Below are positions 47,264 to 56,871 of a stretch of 64,000 bases of DNA, in pieces; positions within the stretch are counted from its first letter, which is position 1, and every line of letters starts with the position of its first letter. The DNA lies in sequence record NC_100372.1; one strand, 5' to 3'. A model generated the notes under the pieces. It worked only from the letters and a program-made list of their open reading frames with translations, searched no databases and was not told the origin of the DNA. The position numbers were made by a program, and so were the translations under genes. Source of the DNA: a phage.

Positions 47264-47455
47264 TCACTTGTTGTTAAGAAGTTCTAAAACTTTCTGTTTT
47301 ACTTTATCAAGGTCTGTTGATTCAAAAATTGTGCGATATCCCCAACTTTGCCCATAGGAATAACTGCAATCCCCGTAACACCATTGCTCAACTTGATAGT
47401 ATTCAAGGAATGGGTGCTGTCTGACTATGATACCGTCTCGATTAAAAATTACCAT
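47264..47455 (-). CDS. Hypothetical protein
   Basis: AGAGAGGGA SD. Confidence 0.55.
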   Translation of the reverse strand: MVIFNRDGIIVRQHPFLEYYQVEQWCYGDCSYSYGQSWGYRTIFESTDLDKVKQKVLELLNNK

Positions 47456-47518
47456 AATTTATCCCTCTCTGCTAGTCTATGTTTGTATTATATACTGCAG
47501 TTTTCAGATGTCAACCTT

Positions 47519-47739: not shown

Positions 47740-47910
47740 TTATACCAGAATCTCCAGCCAGAAAGCACACGGGAACACTTTGAGGATTGAATCTTTACTA
47801 GGCTCGGAAGTTCTTTTTCCGTAGGGCAGGTAGAAATACCCTCCTGCAGATTCAAACATGGCTCCTTCTGTTGTATCTATCACAGCTAGAATTAAGATTT
47901 TAGTCTCCAT
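47740..47910 (-). CDS. Hypothetical protein (56 aa, below the track cut-off)
   Basis: METKILILAVIDTTEGAMFESAGGYFYLPYGKRTSEPSKDSILKVFPCAFWLEILV. GGGGAG SD. Confidence 0.45.
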   Translation of the reverse strand: METKILILAVIDTTEGAMFESAGGYFYLPYGKRTSEPSKDSILKVFPCAFWLEILV

Positions 47911-47964
47911 AGTGCTCCCCTGTCTTAATCGTTGTGGTGACTATACCACCTTAAAATATAGCTG

Positions 47965-48423
47965 TCAACACTCTTTGTACTCCACCACGATAATATCTAT
48001 ATCAAAAGTGGCAAGGTTAATAATGTCCTCTACATGTTCCCACTTCAAACCGCCTATGCCGCACCCGATCTTAGGGATGTAGAATGGTAAAATCGACCCC
48101 TCAAATACTTCATTGACTCGCTCAAAGCCTTTCAGTATTGAGAAATATTCAGCATTAGGCCCTGGGTAGAACTGAGTATACAGATTTATTCCGTAGACAA
48201 TACCTCTCGGAGATAAGTGCTCCCAGCGGGAGAACGCGCCCAGTTTACTTAGGCAACCGTGCATAGTCATTTTATCAGCTTCCAATGCTTGAGGGAACTC
48301 ACGGGCAATCTGTTTTGCTACACCCTTACCCATTGTGTGGAAGCAGTTACAACCGTGGATCAGGTGACCATCACCGCTCTTAAAAAGGGAGATTAAATCT
48401 CCCTCTACAGTATCAATAATCAC
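47965..48423 (-). CDS. Macrodomain protein, TARG1/DarG-like (ADP-ribose hydrolase family)
   Basis: HGCNCFHTMGKGVAKQIA and IPKIGCGIGGLKWEHVEDII match the TARG1-type NC..MG.G(I/V)A and P.IGCG..GL.W motifs. GTG 48423 overlaps the upstream stop. Confidence 0.8.
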   Translation of the reverse strand: MIIDTVEGDLISLFKSGDGHLIHGCNCFHTMGKGVAKQIAREFPQALEADKMTMHGCLSKLGAFSRWEHLSPRGIVYGINLYTQFYPGPNAEYFSILKGFERVNEVFEGSILPFYIPKIGCGIGGLKWEHVEDIINLATFDIDIIVVEYKEC

Positions 48424-48838
48424 GATATTCCAGCTCCTCTTCCACAATTTCAAAAAACTCAGTCCAGCACTGTGGCATATTGGAGTTACCGAAGTGGCTT
48501 TCATAGTAAAGGTTTTTACCGCTCGGAAGATAGAAATCTGTTACCTCATAAAATCCACAATCGTCGCACTCTCCCTCTTCAAACTTGGCCTTAACCTTAA
48601 TGCCGAGGAAGGTGAAAAGTTTATGGATATCTTCGGTCTCGAACTCCCAATTAATGTTGTTTTCCGCATCGGTGTAAAACTGGATCAGTAGGCCATCATC
48701 CATTTTTCCAAAATATTCTGTGAAGTAGCTTCCTTCCCAGAAGTCTTTGTGACAAATAATATCCATGCGCTTGCCCATAATAAAGGTGTGGGCGTTTCGT
48801 GCATCGTCACGAATCAGTTTTGGCATTTCATAAATCAT
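48413..48838 (-). CDS. Hypothetical protein, translationally coupled to the macrodomain gene
   Basis: Start as in the ORF track. No motif recognised. Confidence 0.65.
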   Translation of the reverse strand: MIYEMPKLIRDDARNAHTFIMGKRMDIICHKDFWEGSYFTEYFGKMDDGLLIQFYTDAENNINWEFETEDIHKLFTFLGIKVKAKFEEGECDDCGFYEVTDFYLPSGKNLYYESHFGNSNMPQCWTEFFEIVEEELEYRDY

Positions 48839-48903: not shown

Positions 48904-49101
48904 TTACGCAGGAATTGCTTCAAACAGGCCGTTATCGATACCATCCTTCAAGTAAAGATTATACTCTATGTCAGTATCTGTGTAAAGGGCAGCATCTAGC
49001 ATTCTATCTGTGAGTCCATCCATTGGGTGGAGAAACCACCACCCACGCCAGTCAAAGTAACAACCTGGTGCATCTTCTCTCACACGGATTCGATAAATCA
49101 T
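48904..49101 (-). CDS. Hypothetical protein
   Basis: CAGGAGG SD. Confidence 0.6.
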   Translation of the reverse strand: MIYRIRVREDAPGCYFDWRGWWFLHPMDGLTDRMLDAALYTDTDIEYNLYLKDGIDNGLFEAIPA

Positions 49102-49676: not shown

Positions 49677-50903
49677 TTAAAAAGGTATGTCATCATCAAA
49701 GGCGTACTGTGCCGGATTCTGATCCATCGGGTCGTCTTCCGCATCATCTACAGGAGGAGCGTCTACAGTGTTTTGCTGTGGGGCGGCTTCCTGTTTGGCA
49801 GCTTGAGGCTCTTGATGGTCAGTGGCTCCAGCACCGTTCTTGATCCAATCATACAACGGTTCAGCAAGATTAGTCAAGACATCTTTTGCCTCTGCAGTAA
49901 TTGCTACTGCAAAATCATCAACTTTCGTTTTCTTGTCAATACGGCGACAAGCGTTCAATACCGCATTACCAACACTGGCACCTACTTCATCTTCAGTTCG
50001 GTTAGTGGCTTGAGCGTACTCTTTCTTAAGCTCGATGGTGACCACGTGCAGTGTTTTAGCCACATCTAAAGGGCTGTCAATCTTAAACCCGCGATCCAGG
50101 ATGATCTGCAATGCATTGATACTGTGCCCTGTCTCTACACCGATGGGGTCGTAAGAGGATTTACGCTTACCACCAGAACCTTGTGTACCGTTCTCTGCTT
50201 TAGGCGGGTAGGCCTTGAAGCCGCTGATAATATTCCCGGTGTCTTTGTCAACAATAGCTGCAACACGACCACCTACCACCAGGTCTTTAAGCTGCTCATC
50301 AGAGACAACCATAGCACCTTCACCAATCTTGTGATCATTGACAGTAACCACGTTGCCAACAATCTGAGTCACATCGCCATAGATGCGTAAAACGTCCTGA
50401 TTGGCATTCTGCTGAGGTTTCTGCTTCTGGCCTTGTGATTGTGCACCTTGTTGCTGTTTTTGCTGCTGAGTCGCTGCTGGAGCCTCTCCTGCACCCAGCT
50501 TGACCATCTTAGCCAGGGAGCCTTTGTAATAGGTCTTACCGTTATGCTCGTTTGCCTTCAAAGGGATATTTACGATCCATCCTGGCGTTACAGTTTCCCA
50601 CTTGTCATCAATTTTAACAGAGACAGAGTCTTGATGACCCGGTTTAAGCAGCTTATCACCCATACTGATCCAAACTTCTTCACCACCTTGAAGCAGGTTA
50701 TCAGAGGAATCCAGTTCAGAAATCAGTAAAGAGATGGTGTGGCTGGATTCAATTTTCTTACCTTGCCACACAGTGGTTTTAATACCTGTTGTAGGATCAG
50801 CACCTTTGATAGGCTTGATGCTGACACGTTTAATCATGCCGTGAGCCAGTAAAACAGTTTCACGCGGATTCATCGGGTTAGCGAATTGTTGAATAACGCT
50901 CAT
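49677..50903 (-). CDS. SSB-like protein carrying the bacterial SSB C-terminal tip (...FDDDIPF)
   Basis: Last 7 residues FDDDIPF equal the E. coli SSB acidic tip. Q/G-rich low-complexity linker. Placed in the replication module. The OB fold was not verified. Confidence 0.65.
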   Translation of the reverse strand: MSVIQQFANPMNPRETVLLAHGMIKRVSIKPIKGADPTTGIKTTVWQGKKIESSHTISLLISELDSSDNLLQGGEEVWISMGDKLLKPGHQDSVSVKIDDKWETVTPGWIVNIPLKANEHNGKTYYKGSLAKMVKLGAGEAPAATQQQKQQQGAQSQGQKQKPQQNANQDVLRIYGDVTQIVGNVVTVNDHKIGEGAMVVSDEQLKDLVVGGRVAAIVDKDTGNIISGFKAYPPKAENGTQGSGGKRKSSYDPIGVETGHSINALQIILDRGFKIDSPLDVAKTLHVVTIELKKEYAQATNRTEDEVGASVGNAVLNACRRIDKKTKVDDFAVAITAEAKDVLTNLAEPLYDWIKNGAGATDHQEPQAAKQEAAPQQNTVDAPPVDDAEDDPMDQNPAQYAFDDDIPF

Positions 50904-54093: not shown

Positions 54094-56871
54094 TTAGTGA
54101 CAATCGCCCCAGTTACGACCGCACAAGTATTCACCTGTGATCTGGAACGGAACGCCCATCATTTTAGAAGCCTGCCAGAAGCAATGCACCACCATTTCGC
54201 CCACAGGGCTCCAGATAAGTTCAAGCTTTCCGTCATCGTTCAAGATAGGATCGTATACCGTATTTCCGTCCTTGTCAACCACTTCGTTTCCGTCCTCATT
54301 TTTGCGTGCCTTTTTGTACTTATGACCGTCGAACACATGAAGTTTAGCCTCTTGTTGGGCTTTAAATGTTTCCAGCTCTTCAATTGTGTCGAAGGTGTAT
54401 ACAGTTTTATACTTAGGGGTGTCAGGCACTTGAAGCTGATATTCGTCATGGTAATAAATAATACGACGAACACCTTCATCATACCATCCACGCTTCACCA
54501 TTTGGTGGTGCATGAGGATTCCGACCAAGTCGCACAACGATGCACCGCCATTTTGCTGATATGCATTAAGCAAAGAGTGTTTAGAGCGGGTCCAAATGGC
54601 ATGCCCGTCAAAAGAGTAGATAAATTTCTTACCTGTTGCTTCCCAGAATTTCTCCAGATCCTCTTTGCGCCCCTTAAGACCTGGGTTGGCATCCCAGAGA
54701 GCATCAATTACTCTCTGCCCCAGTTCTGGAGAGATATCCAGCATATCTGCAACTTTATCTTTTTGTGCCCCATACATAACCCCATACGTGATAGGTTTAC
54801 CATCGTTACGAGACACCTCTCTACCTGCTACTTTTGTATATGCCTCAGCATTGTTTTGGTGCGCGTCCCCGTTACTTACAACATCATAATACAGACCGTT
54901 GTCAAACTCAAAGGCACCCCAGGCCCCGATGAGCTGCTCTAAGTTGGACCCGTCAATACCGATCTCAAAGTATCCAGGAGGAACACCCCACAGACTACGC
55001 ATCTCTTTACCCATAACCACTTTAGGAGATGGTTTAGGCATGTTTGCACAAATACTATGTTTCTGTCTGGAAGTGTTTGTTAATCCAGAACTTTTAGCAG
55101 GAAGCTTGTGGTCAATCTTCAAACGTGGATGATTAAGAAGACCAGTATCTACCTTATCTTCCTTGATTGGATCAAGGACCGATCTGCGGTTTCGCAATGA
55201 TAACCACAAAACGATATCTTTAGCCATCTCTCCGTTCAATTTTTCAAGATTCGGGCACAGGTGTCCAAACGTATCTTTCAGTTGCGGAGAAGTAATAAGC
55301 GCTCTGGCTTTTCTACGTATCTTCCCAAACACTTCCTTTTTAATCCTTTCTGAGTTAGGGAAGCTTCGGAACTTGTGCACGGTTGTCTGGAACTTAGCAT
55401 CGGTTTTGTTCCAGAAGTTGATAATCAGGTCACAATACTCTGACTCTAAAAGCTCGTCCATATATGCATATACTCGTGCATCAACATCTGCATCAGGTAG
55501 AGCTTTCTTCTTGCTGTCTTTAGTTACATCCTTAGTTCTCCACATTGTCGGAAGCCAACCAGCACTGATCAGGTATCGCTTAATGTCGTCCTGGTTGCTG
55601 ATTTTCATAGGTATCTTGCAGTCCGGCATTCGCTTCTGCTGTAGATCACTTATTGCCTGATCCATTAGCTCTTTAGGTAAAGGTTGTGGTGTGGAGGTGC
55701 CCTTAATATAGCCTCTCAAGAAATCAGCCATCTTATCGGGGTCTTTGCAGCCCATCTCTTCACACCATTTTATCCCCATCTTGCTGACATCTCCTGTGGA
55801 GGTAAATGCTCGCTTAGGCGGGGCTTTGAACTCTAAAGCGCTCATGTCCACAGGATAGCCAAGCTTATCTTTTAACCATTTCCAACCATTATTGGAGATT
55901 GTCCCATCTTGGTTAAACGGCTTTTCAGGGAACTTGGGCCGCTGAGACATTGACAACTCTTTTAAAGGAAGTTGAGGTTCAACACGATCAGCGATCTCTT
56001 TCATCCACGCATCGCAACGGTCCCGTAAAGCAATAGCCCCATCTATGTCGAAATACACCCCCTGTCGAGCCTGCAGCTCCATCAGAAAGTGCTGTAACAT
56101 GCCTCGGCGTAATGCGTTCTTCCAGGTGATTTTCTTGAAGCCTTTCGGCTTCTCTTTGGCAGGATCGTACATAAAGTTCTGCATGTCAGATTTGCCGTAG
56201 AATACACCTTTTGATTCCGCTACCAACTCCTTCCAGAGCAACTCCTGGATGATAACGTCCTCGAACACACGATCCACATACTTCCACAGAGGAAGCTCAC
56301 GCCAGTCATCGATTTGAACTTTCTGGTTACCAAGGGCATAGCCCCATGCCATAAGGCCATGAGGTCCAACAGGTTGCATTTTCTTGGTAACTGGATTAAA
56401 TACTGCGTCCGGACAACCTTTTGGCAAAGGGCGGTCAGGCCACAAGATTCGACTCATTGCTAACGTATCGAACAGATTAACCTGGTGGTCGTTGATAGTC
56501 CCCATGCATTTAGGATCACGGAACATATCAAAATGAATACCGGATAATCTCTCCATCAGCATAAAGTCGTAGCTGTAGCAGTTATGACAGTTCAAAGCTG
56601 TAGGTGACCAGTCTGAGTTGCCTGTAAGCCAGCCTTCCAACTCTGAAAAATCTGCTATGCGAGCCTCAAAATCTGTATAAAGGGTCTTCTTTGCCAGAAT
56701 GAAGTTCTTAGCTTTCTCCACATCCTCTTCAGAGTAGTGTGTGCGGTCATTTAGAGGAAGGAACAGCATAAAACGGTTCTTATTCAGCTCTTTAAACAAA
56801 CCGCAGTGATAATAAAGATCTGGGTCTTCCAGCAGGCCAGAGGCCTCAAAATCGAACGACCACATGCTCAT
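54094..56871 (-). CDS. DNA polymerase, family A (with 3'-5' exonuclease domain)
   Basis: Exo I FDFEASG, Exo II NCYSYDFMLM. Pol motif A IGIDGSNLEQLI, motif B RNDGKPITYGVMYGAQ, motif C YYHDEYQLQV. Confidence 0.93.
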   Translation of the reverse strand: MSMWSFDFEASGLLEDPDLYYHCGLFKELNKNRFMLFLPLNDRTHYSEEDVEKAKNFILAKKTLYTDFEARIADFSELEGWLTGNSDWSPTALNCHNCYSYDFMLMERLSGIHFDMFRDPKCMGTINDHQVNLFDTLAMSRILWPDRPLPKGCPDAVFNPVTKKMQPVGPHGLMAWGYALGNQKVQIDDWRELPLWKYVDRVFEDVIIQELLWKELVAESKGVFYGKSDMQNFMYDPAKEKPKGFKKITWKNALRRGMLQHFLMELQARQGVYFDIDGAIALRDRCDAWMKEIADRVEPQLPLKELSMSQRPKFPEKPFNQDGTISNNGWKWLKDKLGYPVDMSALEFKAPPKRAFTSTGDVSKMGIKWCEEMGCKDPDKMADFLRGYIKGTSTPQPLPKELMDQAISDLQQKRMPDCKIPMKISNQDDIKRYLISAGWLPTMWRTKDVTKDSKKKALPDADVDARVYAYMDELLESEYCDLIINFWNKTDAKFQTTVHKFRSFPNSERIKKEVFGKIRRKARALITSPQLKDTFGHLCPNLEKLNGEMAKDIVLWLSLRNRRSVLDPIKEDKVDTGLLNHPRLKIDHKLPAKSSGLTNTSRQKHSICANMPKPSPKVVMGKEMRSLWGVPPGYFEIGIDGSNLEQLIGAWGAFEFDNGLYYDVVSNGDAHQNNAEAYTKVAGREVSRNDGKPITYGVMYGAQKDKVADMLDISPELGQRVIDALWDANPGLKGRKEDLEKFWEATGKKFIYSFDGHAIWTRSKHSLLNAYQQNGGASLCDLVGILMHHQMVKRGWYDEGVRRIIYYHDEYQLQVPDTPKYKTVYTFDTIEELETFKAQQEAKLHVFDGHKYKKARKNEDGNEVVDKDGNTVYDPILNDDGKLELIWSPVGEMVVHCFWQASKMMGVPFQITGEYLCGRNWGDCH

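What the first reader, a model, noticed from the sequence alone, without database searches (positions are those of the whole stretch)
47965..48838. TARG1/DarG-type macrodomain in the early region, coupled to an unknown 141-aa protein: candidate counter-defence against ADP-ribosylation
The ORF carries the TARG1-class signatures (H)GCNCxxxMGKG(V)A and P(K)IGCG(I)GGL(K)W. This is the same macrodomain class as the DarG antitoxin, which removes the ADP-ribose that DarT places on ssDNA thymidines.

Its GTG start overlaps the stop of the upstream 141-aa ORF (48413..48838), so the two are probably co-translated. In a lytic phage replication and early module, this is a plausible antidote to DarT-like or other ADP-ribosylating abortive-infection toxins, or to ADP-ribose-derived signals. 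The function of the partner protein is unknown.
Basis: partly seen in the sequence, partly recalled or inferred. Interest (0 to 1): 0.6.

Follow-up and report, generated by a model that had tools for sequence, protein, structure and literature searches.

The report
Phage macrodomain, orthologue of T4 AdfM
This rV5-like E. coli phage carries a small ADP-ribose-removing enzyme related to phage T4's Tk.4/AdfM, which T4 needs to resist the bacterial DarTG2 defence; it is an ordinary member of a very common phage family, and its link to the neighbouring gene looks like genome packing, not a partnership.

Summary
A 152-aa macrodomain ORF (47965..48423, minus strand, GTG start) overlaps the stop of a 141-aa ORF (48413..48838) by 11 nt, and both quoted motifs are present. 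The window is a Vequintavirus (rV5-like) genome.

The macrodomain is 41% identical over its full length (E 7e-43) to T4 Tk.4, named AdfM in a 2025 preprint. A tk.4 knockout makes T4 sensitive to DarTG2. Homologues occur in about 2,800 phage records. The AlphaFold model (pLDDT 96.7) matches TARG1, Poa1p and DarG best.

The TARG1/DarG catalytic lysine is an invariant Gln (Q84) in this family, T4 Tk.4 included, and TARG1 Asp125 is a Gly. The DarG Asn22 equivalent (N26) is kept. So the counter-DarT reading is supported by orthology, but the enzyme cannot use TARG1-style lysine chemistry.

A functional partnership with the 141-aa protein is not supported. That protein is an acidic orphan with no known fold. 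It is found only in Vequintavirus and Krischvirus and lies 9 kb from tk.4 in RB49. The sister genus Seunavirus shows no copy beside its macrodomain and gave no search hit.

The Bas54 orthologues of both genes are dispensable on E. coli K-12.

Verdict: new member of a known kind, of modest interest.

The parts
47965..48423 (-). Macrodomain gene (152 aa, GTG start), orthologue of T4 tk.4/adfM
   Evidence: ORF and sequence. Pfam Macro E 1.3e-7. PHROG 335 E 3e-61. 41% identity, E 7e-43 to T4 Tk.4. 70% to RB49 Tk.4. 80% to Bas54 bas54_0092. AF2 model pLDDT 96.7. Foldseek best hits are TARG1, Poa1p and DarG.
48316..48357 (-). Codons for residues 23-36 (HGCNCFHTMGKGVA): ADP-ribose-binding loop 1, with H23, N26 and T30
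   Evidence: N26, G34 and A36 are invariant, and H23, G24 and M31 nearly invariant, in 60 homologues. N26 aligns to DarG N22. H23 and T30 align to Poa1p H23 and S30 (alignment; PDB entry titles).
48172..48174 (-). Codon CAG for Gln84, at the position of the catalytic Lys of TARG1 (K84), DarG (K80) and PhiKZ AdfM (K78)
   Evidence: Q84 is invariant in alignments A1 and A2. HMMER alignments place it on TARG1 K84 and M. tuberculosis DarG K80. MAFFT places it on the PhiKZ gp104 PTK lysine.
48049..48075 (-). Codons for residues 117-125 (PKIGCGIGG): glycine-rich loop 2; Gly124 sits where TARG1 has Asp125
   Evidence: P117 and G120 are invariant; I119, G122 and G125 nearly invariant. Alignment to TARG1 IGCGLDRLQW.
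48413..48838 (-). Upstream 141-aa gene (PHROG 8157), an acidic protein of unknown function
48413..48423 (-). 11-nt overlap between the stop of the 141-aa gene and the GTG start of the macrodomain gene
   Evidence: Sequence. The same overlap is annotated in ECP26, slur16 and Bas54. 4 of 20 neighbouring pairs also overlap.
48434..48439 (-). GAGGAG Shine-Dalgarno-like site, 10 nt upstream of the GTG start
   Evidence: Read directly from the sequence.
48958..48986 (-). Sigma-70-like promoter match (TTTACA-17-TATAAT, 11/12) upstream of the 141-aa gene; possible start of a two-gene transcript
   Evidence: Consensus scan only. Function not shown. The total count in the region (9) is not clearly above shuffles (5.8 +/- 2.6).
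47940..47968 (-). Sigma-70-like promoter match (TTGACA-17-TATAGT with TG, 11/12) at the macrodomain stop codon; would drive the next downstream gene
   Evidence: Consensus scan only.

Best explanation
The ORF encodes a free-standing macrodomain of the phage Tk.4/AdfM(T4) family. It most likely works as an orphan antitoxin. It would be made during infection from this block of small genes (early expression is inferred). It binds ADP-ribose in the cleft formed by loop 1 (H23-G-C-N26...M31-G-K-G34-V-A36) and loop 2 (P117-K-I-G120-C-G122-I-G-G125). It then cleaves ADP-ribose off thymidines that a host DarT2 toxin has placed on single-stranded phage DNA, so replication can continue.

It has no DarT-binding C-terminal domain, so it would act by erasing the lesion rather than blocking the toxin. 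The catalytic lysine of TARG1, DarG and PhiKZ AdfM is replaced by an invariant glutamine (NLYTQ). The chemistry therefore cannot go through a lysine-ribose intermediate. It presumably relies on N26, H23 and Q84 positioning a water molecule or the distal ribose.

The overlap with the upstream 141-aa gene reflects compact phage gene packing in genus Vequintavirus, and possibly co-translation. It does not indicate a conserved two-protein system.

What is shown here: fold, family membership, conserved residues, gene layout and distribution. What is shown in the literature: T4 tk.4 is needed for DarTG2 resistance, and the Bas54 orthologues are dispensable on K-12. What is inferred: this orthologue has the same role, it is a hydrolase on T-ADPr DNA, and it is expressed early.
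For: - Orthology: 41% identity over full length, E 7e-43, to T4 Tk.4. 70% to RB49 Tk.4, which sits in the syntenic tk.4 slot.
- Family: PHROG 335 E 3e-61. The nearest NCBIfam and PADLOC models are both DarG (E 1.5e-11 and 1e-13).
- Genetics of the T4 orthologue: tk.4 was the only significant hit in a T4 transposon library on a DarTG2 host, a clean knockout became sensitive, and the gene was named adfM.
- Precedent for the chemistry: an independent orphan macrodomain, PhiKZ gp104, removes ADP-ribose from T-ADPr oligonucleotides in vitro, and N23A reduces activity. The equivalent Asn (N26) is invariant here.
- Structure: model pLDDT 96.7. Best matches are TARG1 (TM 0.78/0.85) and DarG macrodomains (TM 0.75).
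- Accessory, condition-specific role: Bas54 orthologues bas54_0092 (80% identity) and bas54_0091 (93%) are non-essential on K-12, which lacks DarTG; 31/31 and 21/23 TA sites were hit. A natural 135.5-kb Vequintavirus contig carries an in-frame deletion that destroys both genes.
- Divergence between this phage and slur16 is concentrated in the macrodomain gene: 63-84% per 100 nt against 89-98% in the flanks. This fits allele exchange or arms-race pressure.
Against: - No experiment exists on any Vequintavirus copy.
- The T4 evidence is genetic only and comes from a preprint. No biochemistry has been done on a Gln-type member.
- The residue that is essential in TARG1 and DarG is missing.
- The loop 1 motif HGCNCFHTMG resembles Poa1p (HSCNCNGSWG), an ADP-ribose-1''-phosphate phosphatase, at least as closely as it resembles DarG.
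- 41% identity leaves room for a change of substrate.
- The Bas54 library was not tested on a DarTG2 host. In the clinical-isolate table held, neither gene is depleted (log2FC +0.42 and +0.52, adjusted p 1).
- Early expression rests only on consensus promoter matches.
Confidence: 0.65

Rival explanations
1. The enzyme's main substrate is a soluble ADP-ribose derivative rather than DNA. Candidates are ADP-ribose-1''-phosphate, O-acetyl-ADP-ribose, or an ADP-ribose-based immune signal. It would then be a Poa1p-like phosphatase or deacylase that clears RNA-repair or sirtuin by-products, or degrades signalling molecules.
For: - Phage H23, N26 and T30 coincide with Poa1p H23, N26 and S30, and the depositors made H23A and S30A mutants (alignment; PDB titles).
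- Poa1p is among the top structural hits (E 3e-9).
- The PHROG name and several GenBank annotations say 'phosphatase' or 'O-acetyl-ADP-ribose deacetylase'.
- The catalytic Lys used for macromolecular de-ADP-ribosylation is absent.
- Vequintaviruses encode a sirtuin, an RNA ligase and a polynucleotide kinase (Bas54 table). In Seunavirus the macrodomain lies about 1 kb from an RNA ligase gene.
- A survey of viral NAD/ADPr systems argues that viral ADPr-processing domains may prefer soluble derivatives (PMC9503650).
Against: - The T4 orthologue with the same motifs gives a specific DarTG2 phenotype.
- The 'phosphatase' annotations are transferred names, not tests.
- The sirtuin/RNA-ligase module in Bas54 is about 50 kb away.
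Confidence: 0.15
2. It reverses ADP-ribosylation of protein or RNA targets, for example marks placed by other host ADP-ribosyltransferase defences such as mRNA-modifying CmdT-like toxins, rather than DarT2 marks on DNA.
For: - TARG1 and SCO6735, which are structural relatives, act on protein-linked ADP-ribose (my own knowledge of those enzymes, not tested here).
- ADP-ribosylating defences beyond DarTG exist, such as CmdTAC (PMC11618068, listed).
Against: - In the T4 screen the gene's phenotype was specific to DarTG2.
- The CmdTAC abstract states that the system defends robustly against T-even phages. Homologues of this macrodomain sit beside the vs gene in many T4-like genomes.
- No ADP-ribosyltransferase gene is listed in the part of the Bas54 gene table read (bas54_0065 onward) that the enzyme might regulate.
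Confidence: 0.1
3. The 141-aa protein and the macrodomain form a functional two-protein unit. One version is a 'split DarG', in which the very acidic partner binds or blocks DarT as a DNA mimic while the macrodomain erases the marks.
For: - The 11-nt overlap allows translational coupling.
- The pair is conserved across about 118 Vequintavirus records.
- The partner is strongly acidic (net charge -17, pI 4.4), like the DNA-mimicking C-terminal domain of DarG described in PMC11481870.
- There is precedent for an Adf enzyme needing an unidentified phage co-factor: AdfN of T4 (PMC11825919).
Against: - The partner occurs in 176 phage records and the macrodomain in 2,802.
- In RB49 both genes exist but lie 9 kb apart, and the partner sits next to dam.
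- More distant partner homologues sit between Mom-like and QueC-like/Dam genes.
- In Seunavirus no gene of the partner's size flanks the macrodomain, and the partner search found no hit in that genus. T4 tk.4 is instead coupled to vs, which is unrelated to the partner.
- Conservation within one genus at >90% nucleotide identity says little.
- Overlaps are common in this gene block.
Confidence: 0.1
4. It is a non-catalytic ADP-ribose binder (a reader or sponge), because the catalytic lysine is lost.
For: Lys to Gln at the catalytic position and Asp to Gly at the TARG1 D125 position.
Against: - Invariance of Q84, N26, N80 and G88, and near-invariance of H23, across 60 sequences down to about 30% identity points to a preserved active site rather than decay.
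- Binding alone would not repair modified DNA, yet T4 tk.4 is required against DarTG2.
Confidence: 0.04

Closest known systems
T4 Tk.4 = AdfM(T4), orphan macrodomain anti-DarTG2 factor (preprint 10.1101/2025.11.20.689424)
   Same: Full-length homologue: 41% identity, E 7e-43. Same size. Same motifs: HGCNCFHTMG, NLYTQ and I-G-x-G-I-G. Same Gln at the lysine position. A stand-alone gene among small non-essential genes. Its start overlaps the stop of the gene upstream.
   Different: The upstream neighbour differs: vs in T4, the 141-aa orphan here, and the two are unrelated. The phage family differs (Straboviridae against Vequintavirinae). No functional test exists for the Vequintavirus copy.
PhiKZ gp104 = AdfM of chimalliviruses (Cell Rep 2026, PMC13309987)
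   Same: An orphan phage macrodomain with the same proposed job. The conserved Asn is kept (N23 there, N26 here). PhiKZ AdfM removes T-linked ADP-ribose from DNA in vitro.
   Different: Only 26% identical. PhiKZ keeps the DarG-type catalytic lysine (PTK, K78) where this family has YTQ. PhiKZ AdfM is imported into the phage nucleus and expressed late.
DarG antitoxin macrodomain (DarTG2; PDB 5m3i, 5m3e, 7omu)
   Same: Best sequence match in the PDB for the single protein (E 4.9e-7). It is the nearest model in both NCBIfam and PADLOC. TM about 0.75. Asn22 is conserved.
   Different: The score of 44 bits is far below the equivalog cut-off of 250. There is no C-terminal DarT-binding domain and no adjacent darT gene. 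K80 is replaced by Gln.
Human TARG1/OARD1 (PDB 4j5r, 4j5s)
   Same: Best structural match (Foldseek E 5e-10, TM 0.78/0.85) and best profile match (E 2e-17). The His of loop 1 and the IGCG loop are shared.
   Different: Both catalytic residues are missing: K84 is Gln and D125 is Gly.
Yeast Poa1p, ADP-ribose-1''-phosphate phosphatase (PDB 6lfq-6lfu)
   Same: Loop 1 is nearly superimposable in sequence (HSCNCNGSWGGG against HGCNCFHTMGKG). H23, N26 and S/T30 have identical numbering. Foldseek E 3e-9.
   Different: Lower TM (0.70-0.74), with insertions in Poa1p. Poa1p has no Gln at the position after the conserved Thr (from my memory of its sequence, not checked here). No evidence that the phage enzyme is a phosphatase.

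Membership tests
Macro domain (Pfam PF01661) | Profile score above the curated gathering threshold | tested here: met
   32 bits against a cut-off of 22, E 1.3e-7, covering profile positions 1-118 of 118.
Macro domain (Pfam PF01661) | Three-layer alpha/beta/alpha macro fold with glycine-rich ADP-ribose-binding loops | tested here: met
   AF2 model pLDDT 96.7, pTM 0.91. 188 PDB matches at E<=1e-3; of the 50 listed, all but about ten designed hydrolases are macrodomains. Loops MGKGVA and IGCGIGG are conserved.
TARG1-type (Lys/Asp dyad) ADP-ribosyl hydrolase | Catalytic lysine (TARG1 K84) | tested here: not met
   The position aligns to Gln84, which is invariant in 60 family members.
TARG1-type (Lys/Asp dyad) ADP-ribosyl hydrolase | Catalytic aspartate (TARG1 D125) | tested here: not met
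   The position aligns to Gly124 in IGCGIGGLKW.
DarG antitoxin (NCBIfam NF048014 equivalog; PADLOC DarG) | Whole-protein score above the equivalog cut-off, including the C-terminal DarT-binding domain | tested here: not met
   44.1 bits against a cut-off of 250. Only profile positions 3-143 of 338 are matched. The protein ends after the macrodomain.
DarG antitoxin (NCBIfam NF048014 equivalog; PADLOC DarG) | Active-site Asn22 and Lys80 | tested here: inconclusive
   Asn is present (N26, invariant). Lys is absent (Q84). One of the two residues is met.
DarG antitoxin (NCBIfam NF048014 equivalog; PADLOC DarG) | Encoded next to a darT toxin gene | tested here: not met
   The neighbours are small phage ORFs. 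The upstream 141-aa protein has no PADLOC, NCBIfam or Pfam hit.
Tk.4 / AdfM(T4) family of orphan phage macrodomains | Full-length homology to T4 Tk.4 with shared family motifs (HGCNC, NLYTQ, IGxGIG) | tested here: met
   41% identity, E 7e-43. 70% to RB49 Tk.4. PHROG 335 E 3e-61. Motifs are invariant or nearly so.
Tk.4 / AdfM(T4) family of orphan phage macrodomains | Dispensable in a host without DarTG | tested here: met
   From the literature, for the 80%-identical Bas54 orthologue: 31/31 TA sites disrupted, classed non-essential. A natural deletion variant also exists.
Tk.4 / AdfM(T4) family of orphan phage macrodomains | Required for, or sufficient for, resistance to DarTG2 | not testable with these tools
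   Shown only for T4 tk.4. Needs plaque assays with a knockout or with ectopic expression.
Tk.4 / AdfM(T4) family of orphan phage macrodomains | Hydrolysis of thymidine-linked ADP-ribose on ssDNA | not testable with these tools
   Shown in vitro only for the Lys-type PhiKZ AdfM. No biochemistry exists for any Gln-type member.
Poa1p-like ADP-ribose-1''-phosphate phosphatase | Loop 1 His23 and Ser30 equivalents | tested here: inconclusive
   H23 is present and nearly invariant. Position 30 is Thr here and usually Thr in the family, but variable. The functional meaning of these residues is taken only from PDB mutant titles.

The most novel reading that the evidence does not exclude
The Gln-type Tk.4/AdfM macrodomains (NLYTQ in place of PTK) may be a mechanistically distinct, lysine-independent class of DNA de-ADP-ribosylases, possibly with a broader or different substrate range than DarG. 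In Vequintavirus the translationally coupled, highly acidic 141-aa orphan protein may act as an accessory, for example a DarT-binding DNA mimic. Together the two would then re-create a 'split DarG'.
Probability: 0.1. Interest if true: 0.6.

Novelty: new member of a known kind. Interest (0 to 1): 0.3.

Why it matters
It adds the rV5-like phages, which are candidates for phage therapy, to the groups that probably carry an enzymatic antidote to DarTG2. That would help predict host range on DarTG-bearing E. coli.

The more useful by-product is mechanistic. The very large T4-type AdfM family (about 2,800 phage records) has an invariant glutamine where TARG1, DarG and PhiKZ AdfM have their essential lysine. 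Either the family uses a different chemistry on the same lesion, or its true substrate is not yet known. Simple enzymology could settle this.

The gene is also a local hot-spot of divergence among otherwise near-identical phages, as expected for a counter-defence gene.

Tried and rejected
- Partner compared with T4 Vs, the gene coupled to tk.4 in T4: unrelated, E 37.
- Longer ATG start (179 aa, as annotated in NHEP1): rejected, because every homologue starts at the GTG-equivalent position.
- Bas54 identity. I first guessed Bas54 was phage DrSchubert from matching coordinates. The supplement gives MZ501093 (MaxBurger), and I then confirmed orthology directly.
- Conditional essentiality of the Bas54 orthologues on clinical isolates. 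The two resampling sheets held as text carry identical numbers, so I can only say that neither gene is depleted in the table held, and I cannot say for which isolate.
Rerun without it.
- No tRNA genes in the window.
Full report
**What the window is.** The 2.2 kb around the finding is 98-99% identical to Escherichia phages NHEP1, B9-1 and ECP26. It matches 118 phage records, nearly all Vequintavirus (rV5-like myophages). The region is a long minus-strand block of small genes. It lies downstream of rIIB, helicase, primase/helicase and the DNA polymerase gene (54094..56871), which is about 5.7 kb upstream of the finding.

**Checking the observation.**
- The macrodomain ORF runs 48423..47965 on the minus strand (GTG start, 152 aa).
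- The upstream ORF runs 48838..48413 (141 aa).
- They overlap by 11 nt. Curated records annotate the same pair with the same overlap.
- Both quoted motifs are present.
- The GTG start is confirmed because T4 Tk.4, RB49 Tk.4 and about 60 other homologues all begin at the equivalent residue. GAGGAG lies 10 nt upstream.
- The overlap itself is unremarkable. 4 of 20 adjacent gene pairs in this block overlap by 4-11 nt, and T4 tk.4 likewise overlaps its own, unrelated, upstream gene vs.

**What the macrodomain is.**
- Pfam Macro scores above threshold.
- The nearest NCBIfam and PADLOC models are both DarG, but only over the macrodomain part: 44 bits against a cut-off of 250.
- The AlphaFold2 model is excellent (pLDDT 96.7, pTM 0.91).
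- Its best solved-structure matches are TARG1 (E 5e-10, TM 0.78/0.85), Poa1p, and the T. aquaticus and M. tuberculosis DarG macrodomains (TM about 0.75).
- A 60-sequence family profile hits TARG1 and M. tuberculosis DarG at about E 2e-17.

**The decisive link.** A translated search of 50,697 phage records finds homologues in 2,802 of them. These include the T4-like phages, where the gene sits beside vs. The T4 gene at that position is tk.4, and the window protein is 41% identical to it over its full length (E 7e-43). It is 70% identical to RB49 Tk.4, which occupies the syntenic slot.

A 2025 preprint (HIDEN-SEQ, 10.1101/2025.11.20.689424) reports the following:
- tk.4 was the single significant hit when a T4 transposon library was grown on a DarTG2 host.
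- A clean tk.4 knockout becomes DarTG2-sensitive.
- The authors name the gene adfM and infer, without testing, that it removes ADP-ribose from DNA.

Independently, a 2026 Cell Reports paper (PMC13309987) shows that a different orphan macrodomain, PhiKZ gp104, also named AdfM, removes thymidine-linked ADP-ribose from DNA in vitro and protects chimalliviruses from DarTG2.

- In single-sequence and profile alignments, TARG1 K84 and DarG K80 both align to Gln84 (motif NLYTQ).
- TARG1 D125 aligns to Gly124.
- DarG N22 aligns to Asn26.
- In alignments of 40 and 60 family members reaching down to about 30% identity, N26, N80, Q84, G88, P117 and G120 are invariant, and H23 is nearly so.
- T4 Tk.4 and RB49 Tk.4 carry the same Gln.
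- PhiKZ gp104, only 26% identical, keeps the DarG-type lysine (PTK) at that column. The paper names that residue K78.

There are therefore two unrelated-looking 'AdfM' types, a Lys-type and a Gln-type, and this gene belongs to the Gln-type. Loop 1 (HGCNCFHTMGKG) also mirrors yeast Poa1p (HSCNCNGSWGGG). H23 and T30 fall on Poa1p H23 and S30, residues the Poa1p depositors mutated. This keeps a small-molecule substrate alive as a rival explanation. An invariant Gln argues for a preserved active site with different chemistry, not for a dead enzyme.

**Evidence that the gene is accessory.** Bas54 (phage MaxBurger, MZ501093) carries the same pair. bas54_0092 is 80% identical to the macrodomain, and bas54_0091 is 93% identical to the partner. 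Both are classed non-essential on E. coli K-12, with 31/31 and 21/23 TA sites disrupted. Neither is depleted in the clinical-isolate table held. The library was not tested on DarTG2.

A 135.5-kb Vequintavirus contig carries a natural in-frame deletion. It fuses partner residues 1-55 to macrodomain residues 85-152 at a shared QFY microhomology, and it removes H23, N26 and Q84.

Between this phage and slur16, nucleotide identity is 89-98% per 100 nt in the flanks but falls to 63-84% across the macrodomain gene. The same pattern shows in the 80% against 93% protein identities with Bas54. That is the pattern expected for a gene under arms-race pressure or allele exchange. The 70% identity to Krischvirus Tk.4 points to exchange between co-infecting E. 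coli phages.

**The 141-aa partner.**
- It is a real gene: it is conserved down to 23-40% identity, and its model has pLDDT 86.6.
- It has no family annotation, no structural match, and a very narrow distribution. It occurs in 176 phage records, all Vequintavirus or Krischvirus, with a handful of metagenomic relatives.
- It is very acidic (pI 4.4, net charge -17).
- It has a conserved C-terminal motif, E-G-x-C-D-x-C-G-x-Y...L-P-S-G...H-F-G-N.

Comparative genomics argues against a functional pairing:
- In RB49 the homologue (ORF064c) lies immediately upstream of dam, 9 kb from tk.4.
- More distant homologues sit in a Mom-like / partner / QueC-like / Dam / glutaredoxin arrangement.
- In the sister genus Seunavirus no gene of the partner's size flanks the macrodomain, and the partner search found no hit in that genus.

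Adjacency is thus confined to one genus whose members are more than 90% identical. The pair may still be co-transcribed. An 11/12 sigma-70-like match lies upstream of the partner at 48986..48958, and another lies at the macrodomain stop. These are consensus matches only.

**Mechanism proposed.** The protein is an orphan antitoxin-like eraser. It binds ADP-ribose through the two glycine-rich loops and hydrolyses the thymidine-ADP-ribose bond made by DarT2 on single-stranded phage DNA, which restores a replicable template. It lacks DarG's toxin-binding domain, so it would act on the lesion and not on the toxin. The Lys-to-Gln change excludes a TARG1-style lysine adduct. N26, H23 and Q84 probably position water or the distal ribose.
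- Shown here: fold, orthology, residue conservation and gene layout.
- Shown in the literature for T4 and Bas54: the DarTG2 phenotype and dispensability.
- Inferred: the enzymatic step, the substrate, the timing of expression, and transfer of the function to this orthologue.

**Verdict.** This is a new member of a known kind. Interest is modest. The two points worth following are the invariant Gln in a family of about 2,800 phage genes and the orphan acidic neighbour.

Noticed in passing
window 47865..48464 (compared with slur16 locus L013): Nucleotide divergence between this phage and slur16 is confined to the macrodomain gene: 63-84% identity per 100 nt, against 89-98% in both flanks. The partner protein is 93% identical to its Bas54 orthologue, while the macrodomain is only 80%. 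This suggests allele replacement or diversifying selection at this one gene.
   Followed up: partly
L015:1501-1866 (Logan ERR11560567 contig, 135,506 bp); corresponds to window 47965..48838: A natural Vequintavirus assembly carries a 121-aa in-frame fusion of partner residues 1-55 to macrodomain residues 85-152, joined at a shared 'QFY' microhomology. This is a roughly 508-nt deletion that removes the macrodomain active-site residues.
   Followed up: partly
L009:2918-5752, L010:184-2434, L007:514-1627; RB49 locus L004:3001-4244: Distant homologues of the 141-aa protein sit in a conserved neighbourhood of DNA-modification genes in T4-like phages: Mom-like, then the partner homologue, then a QueC-like PP-loop protein, then Dam methyltransferase, then glutaredoxin. 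In RB49 the homologue lies directly upstream of dam. In L007 and L008 its stop overlaps the start of the QueC-like gene by 17 nt.
   Followed up: partly
window 49677..50903 (-): A 408-aa acidic, Gln-rich ORF ends in ...FDDDIPF, the same C-terminal tip as E. coli SSB (from my own knowledge). It may be the phage single-strand DNA-binding protein, or a mimic of the SSB interaction tail. The syntenic Bas54 gene bas54_0087 is 'hypothetical' and is classed Essential in HIDEN-SEQ (8 of 57 TA sites hit).
   Followed up: no
window 47487..47514 (-): A perfect 12/12 sigma-70 consensus (TTGACA-16-TATAAT) lies on the minus strand just upstream of the small gene 47264..47455. Several other 10-11/12 matches precede small genes in this block, which fits a string of host-RNA-polymerase promoters.
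   Followed up: no
Supplementary file 9 of 10.1101/2025.11.20.689424 (Bas54 resampling sheets): As stored, the two sheets said to compare K-12 with CFE303 and with CFE311 hold identical numbers: the same 27 significant genes and the same values. The isolate behind the values therefore cannot be told from the held text.
   Followed up: partly
L012:2480-2974 (Salmonella phage KE23, Seunavirus): In the sister genus the macrodomain homologue (164 aa, about 35% identical) lies about 1 kb upstream of a methyltransferase and an RNA ligase gene. This is a different context, and it keeps an RNA-repair or by-product role conceivable.
   Followed up: no
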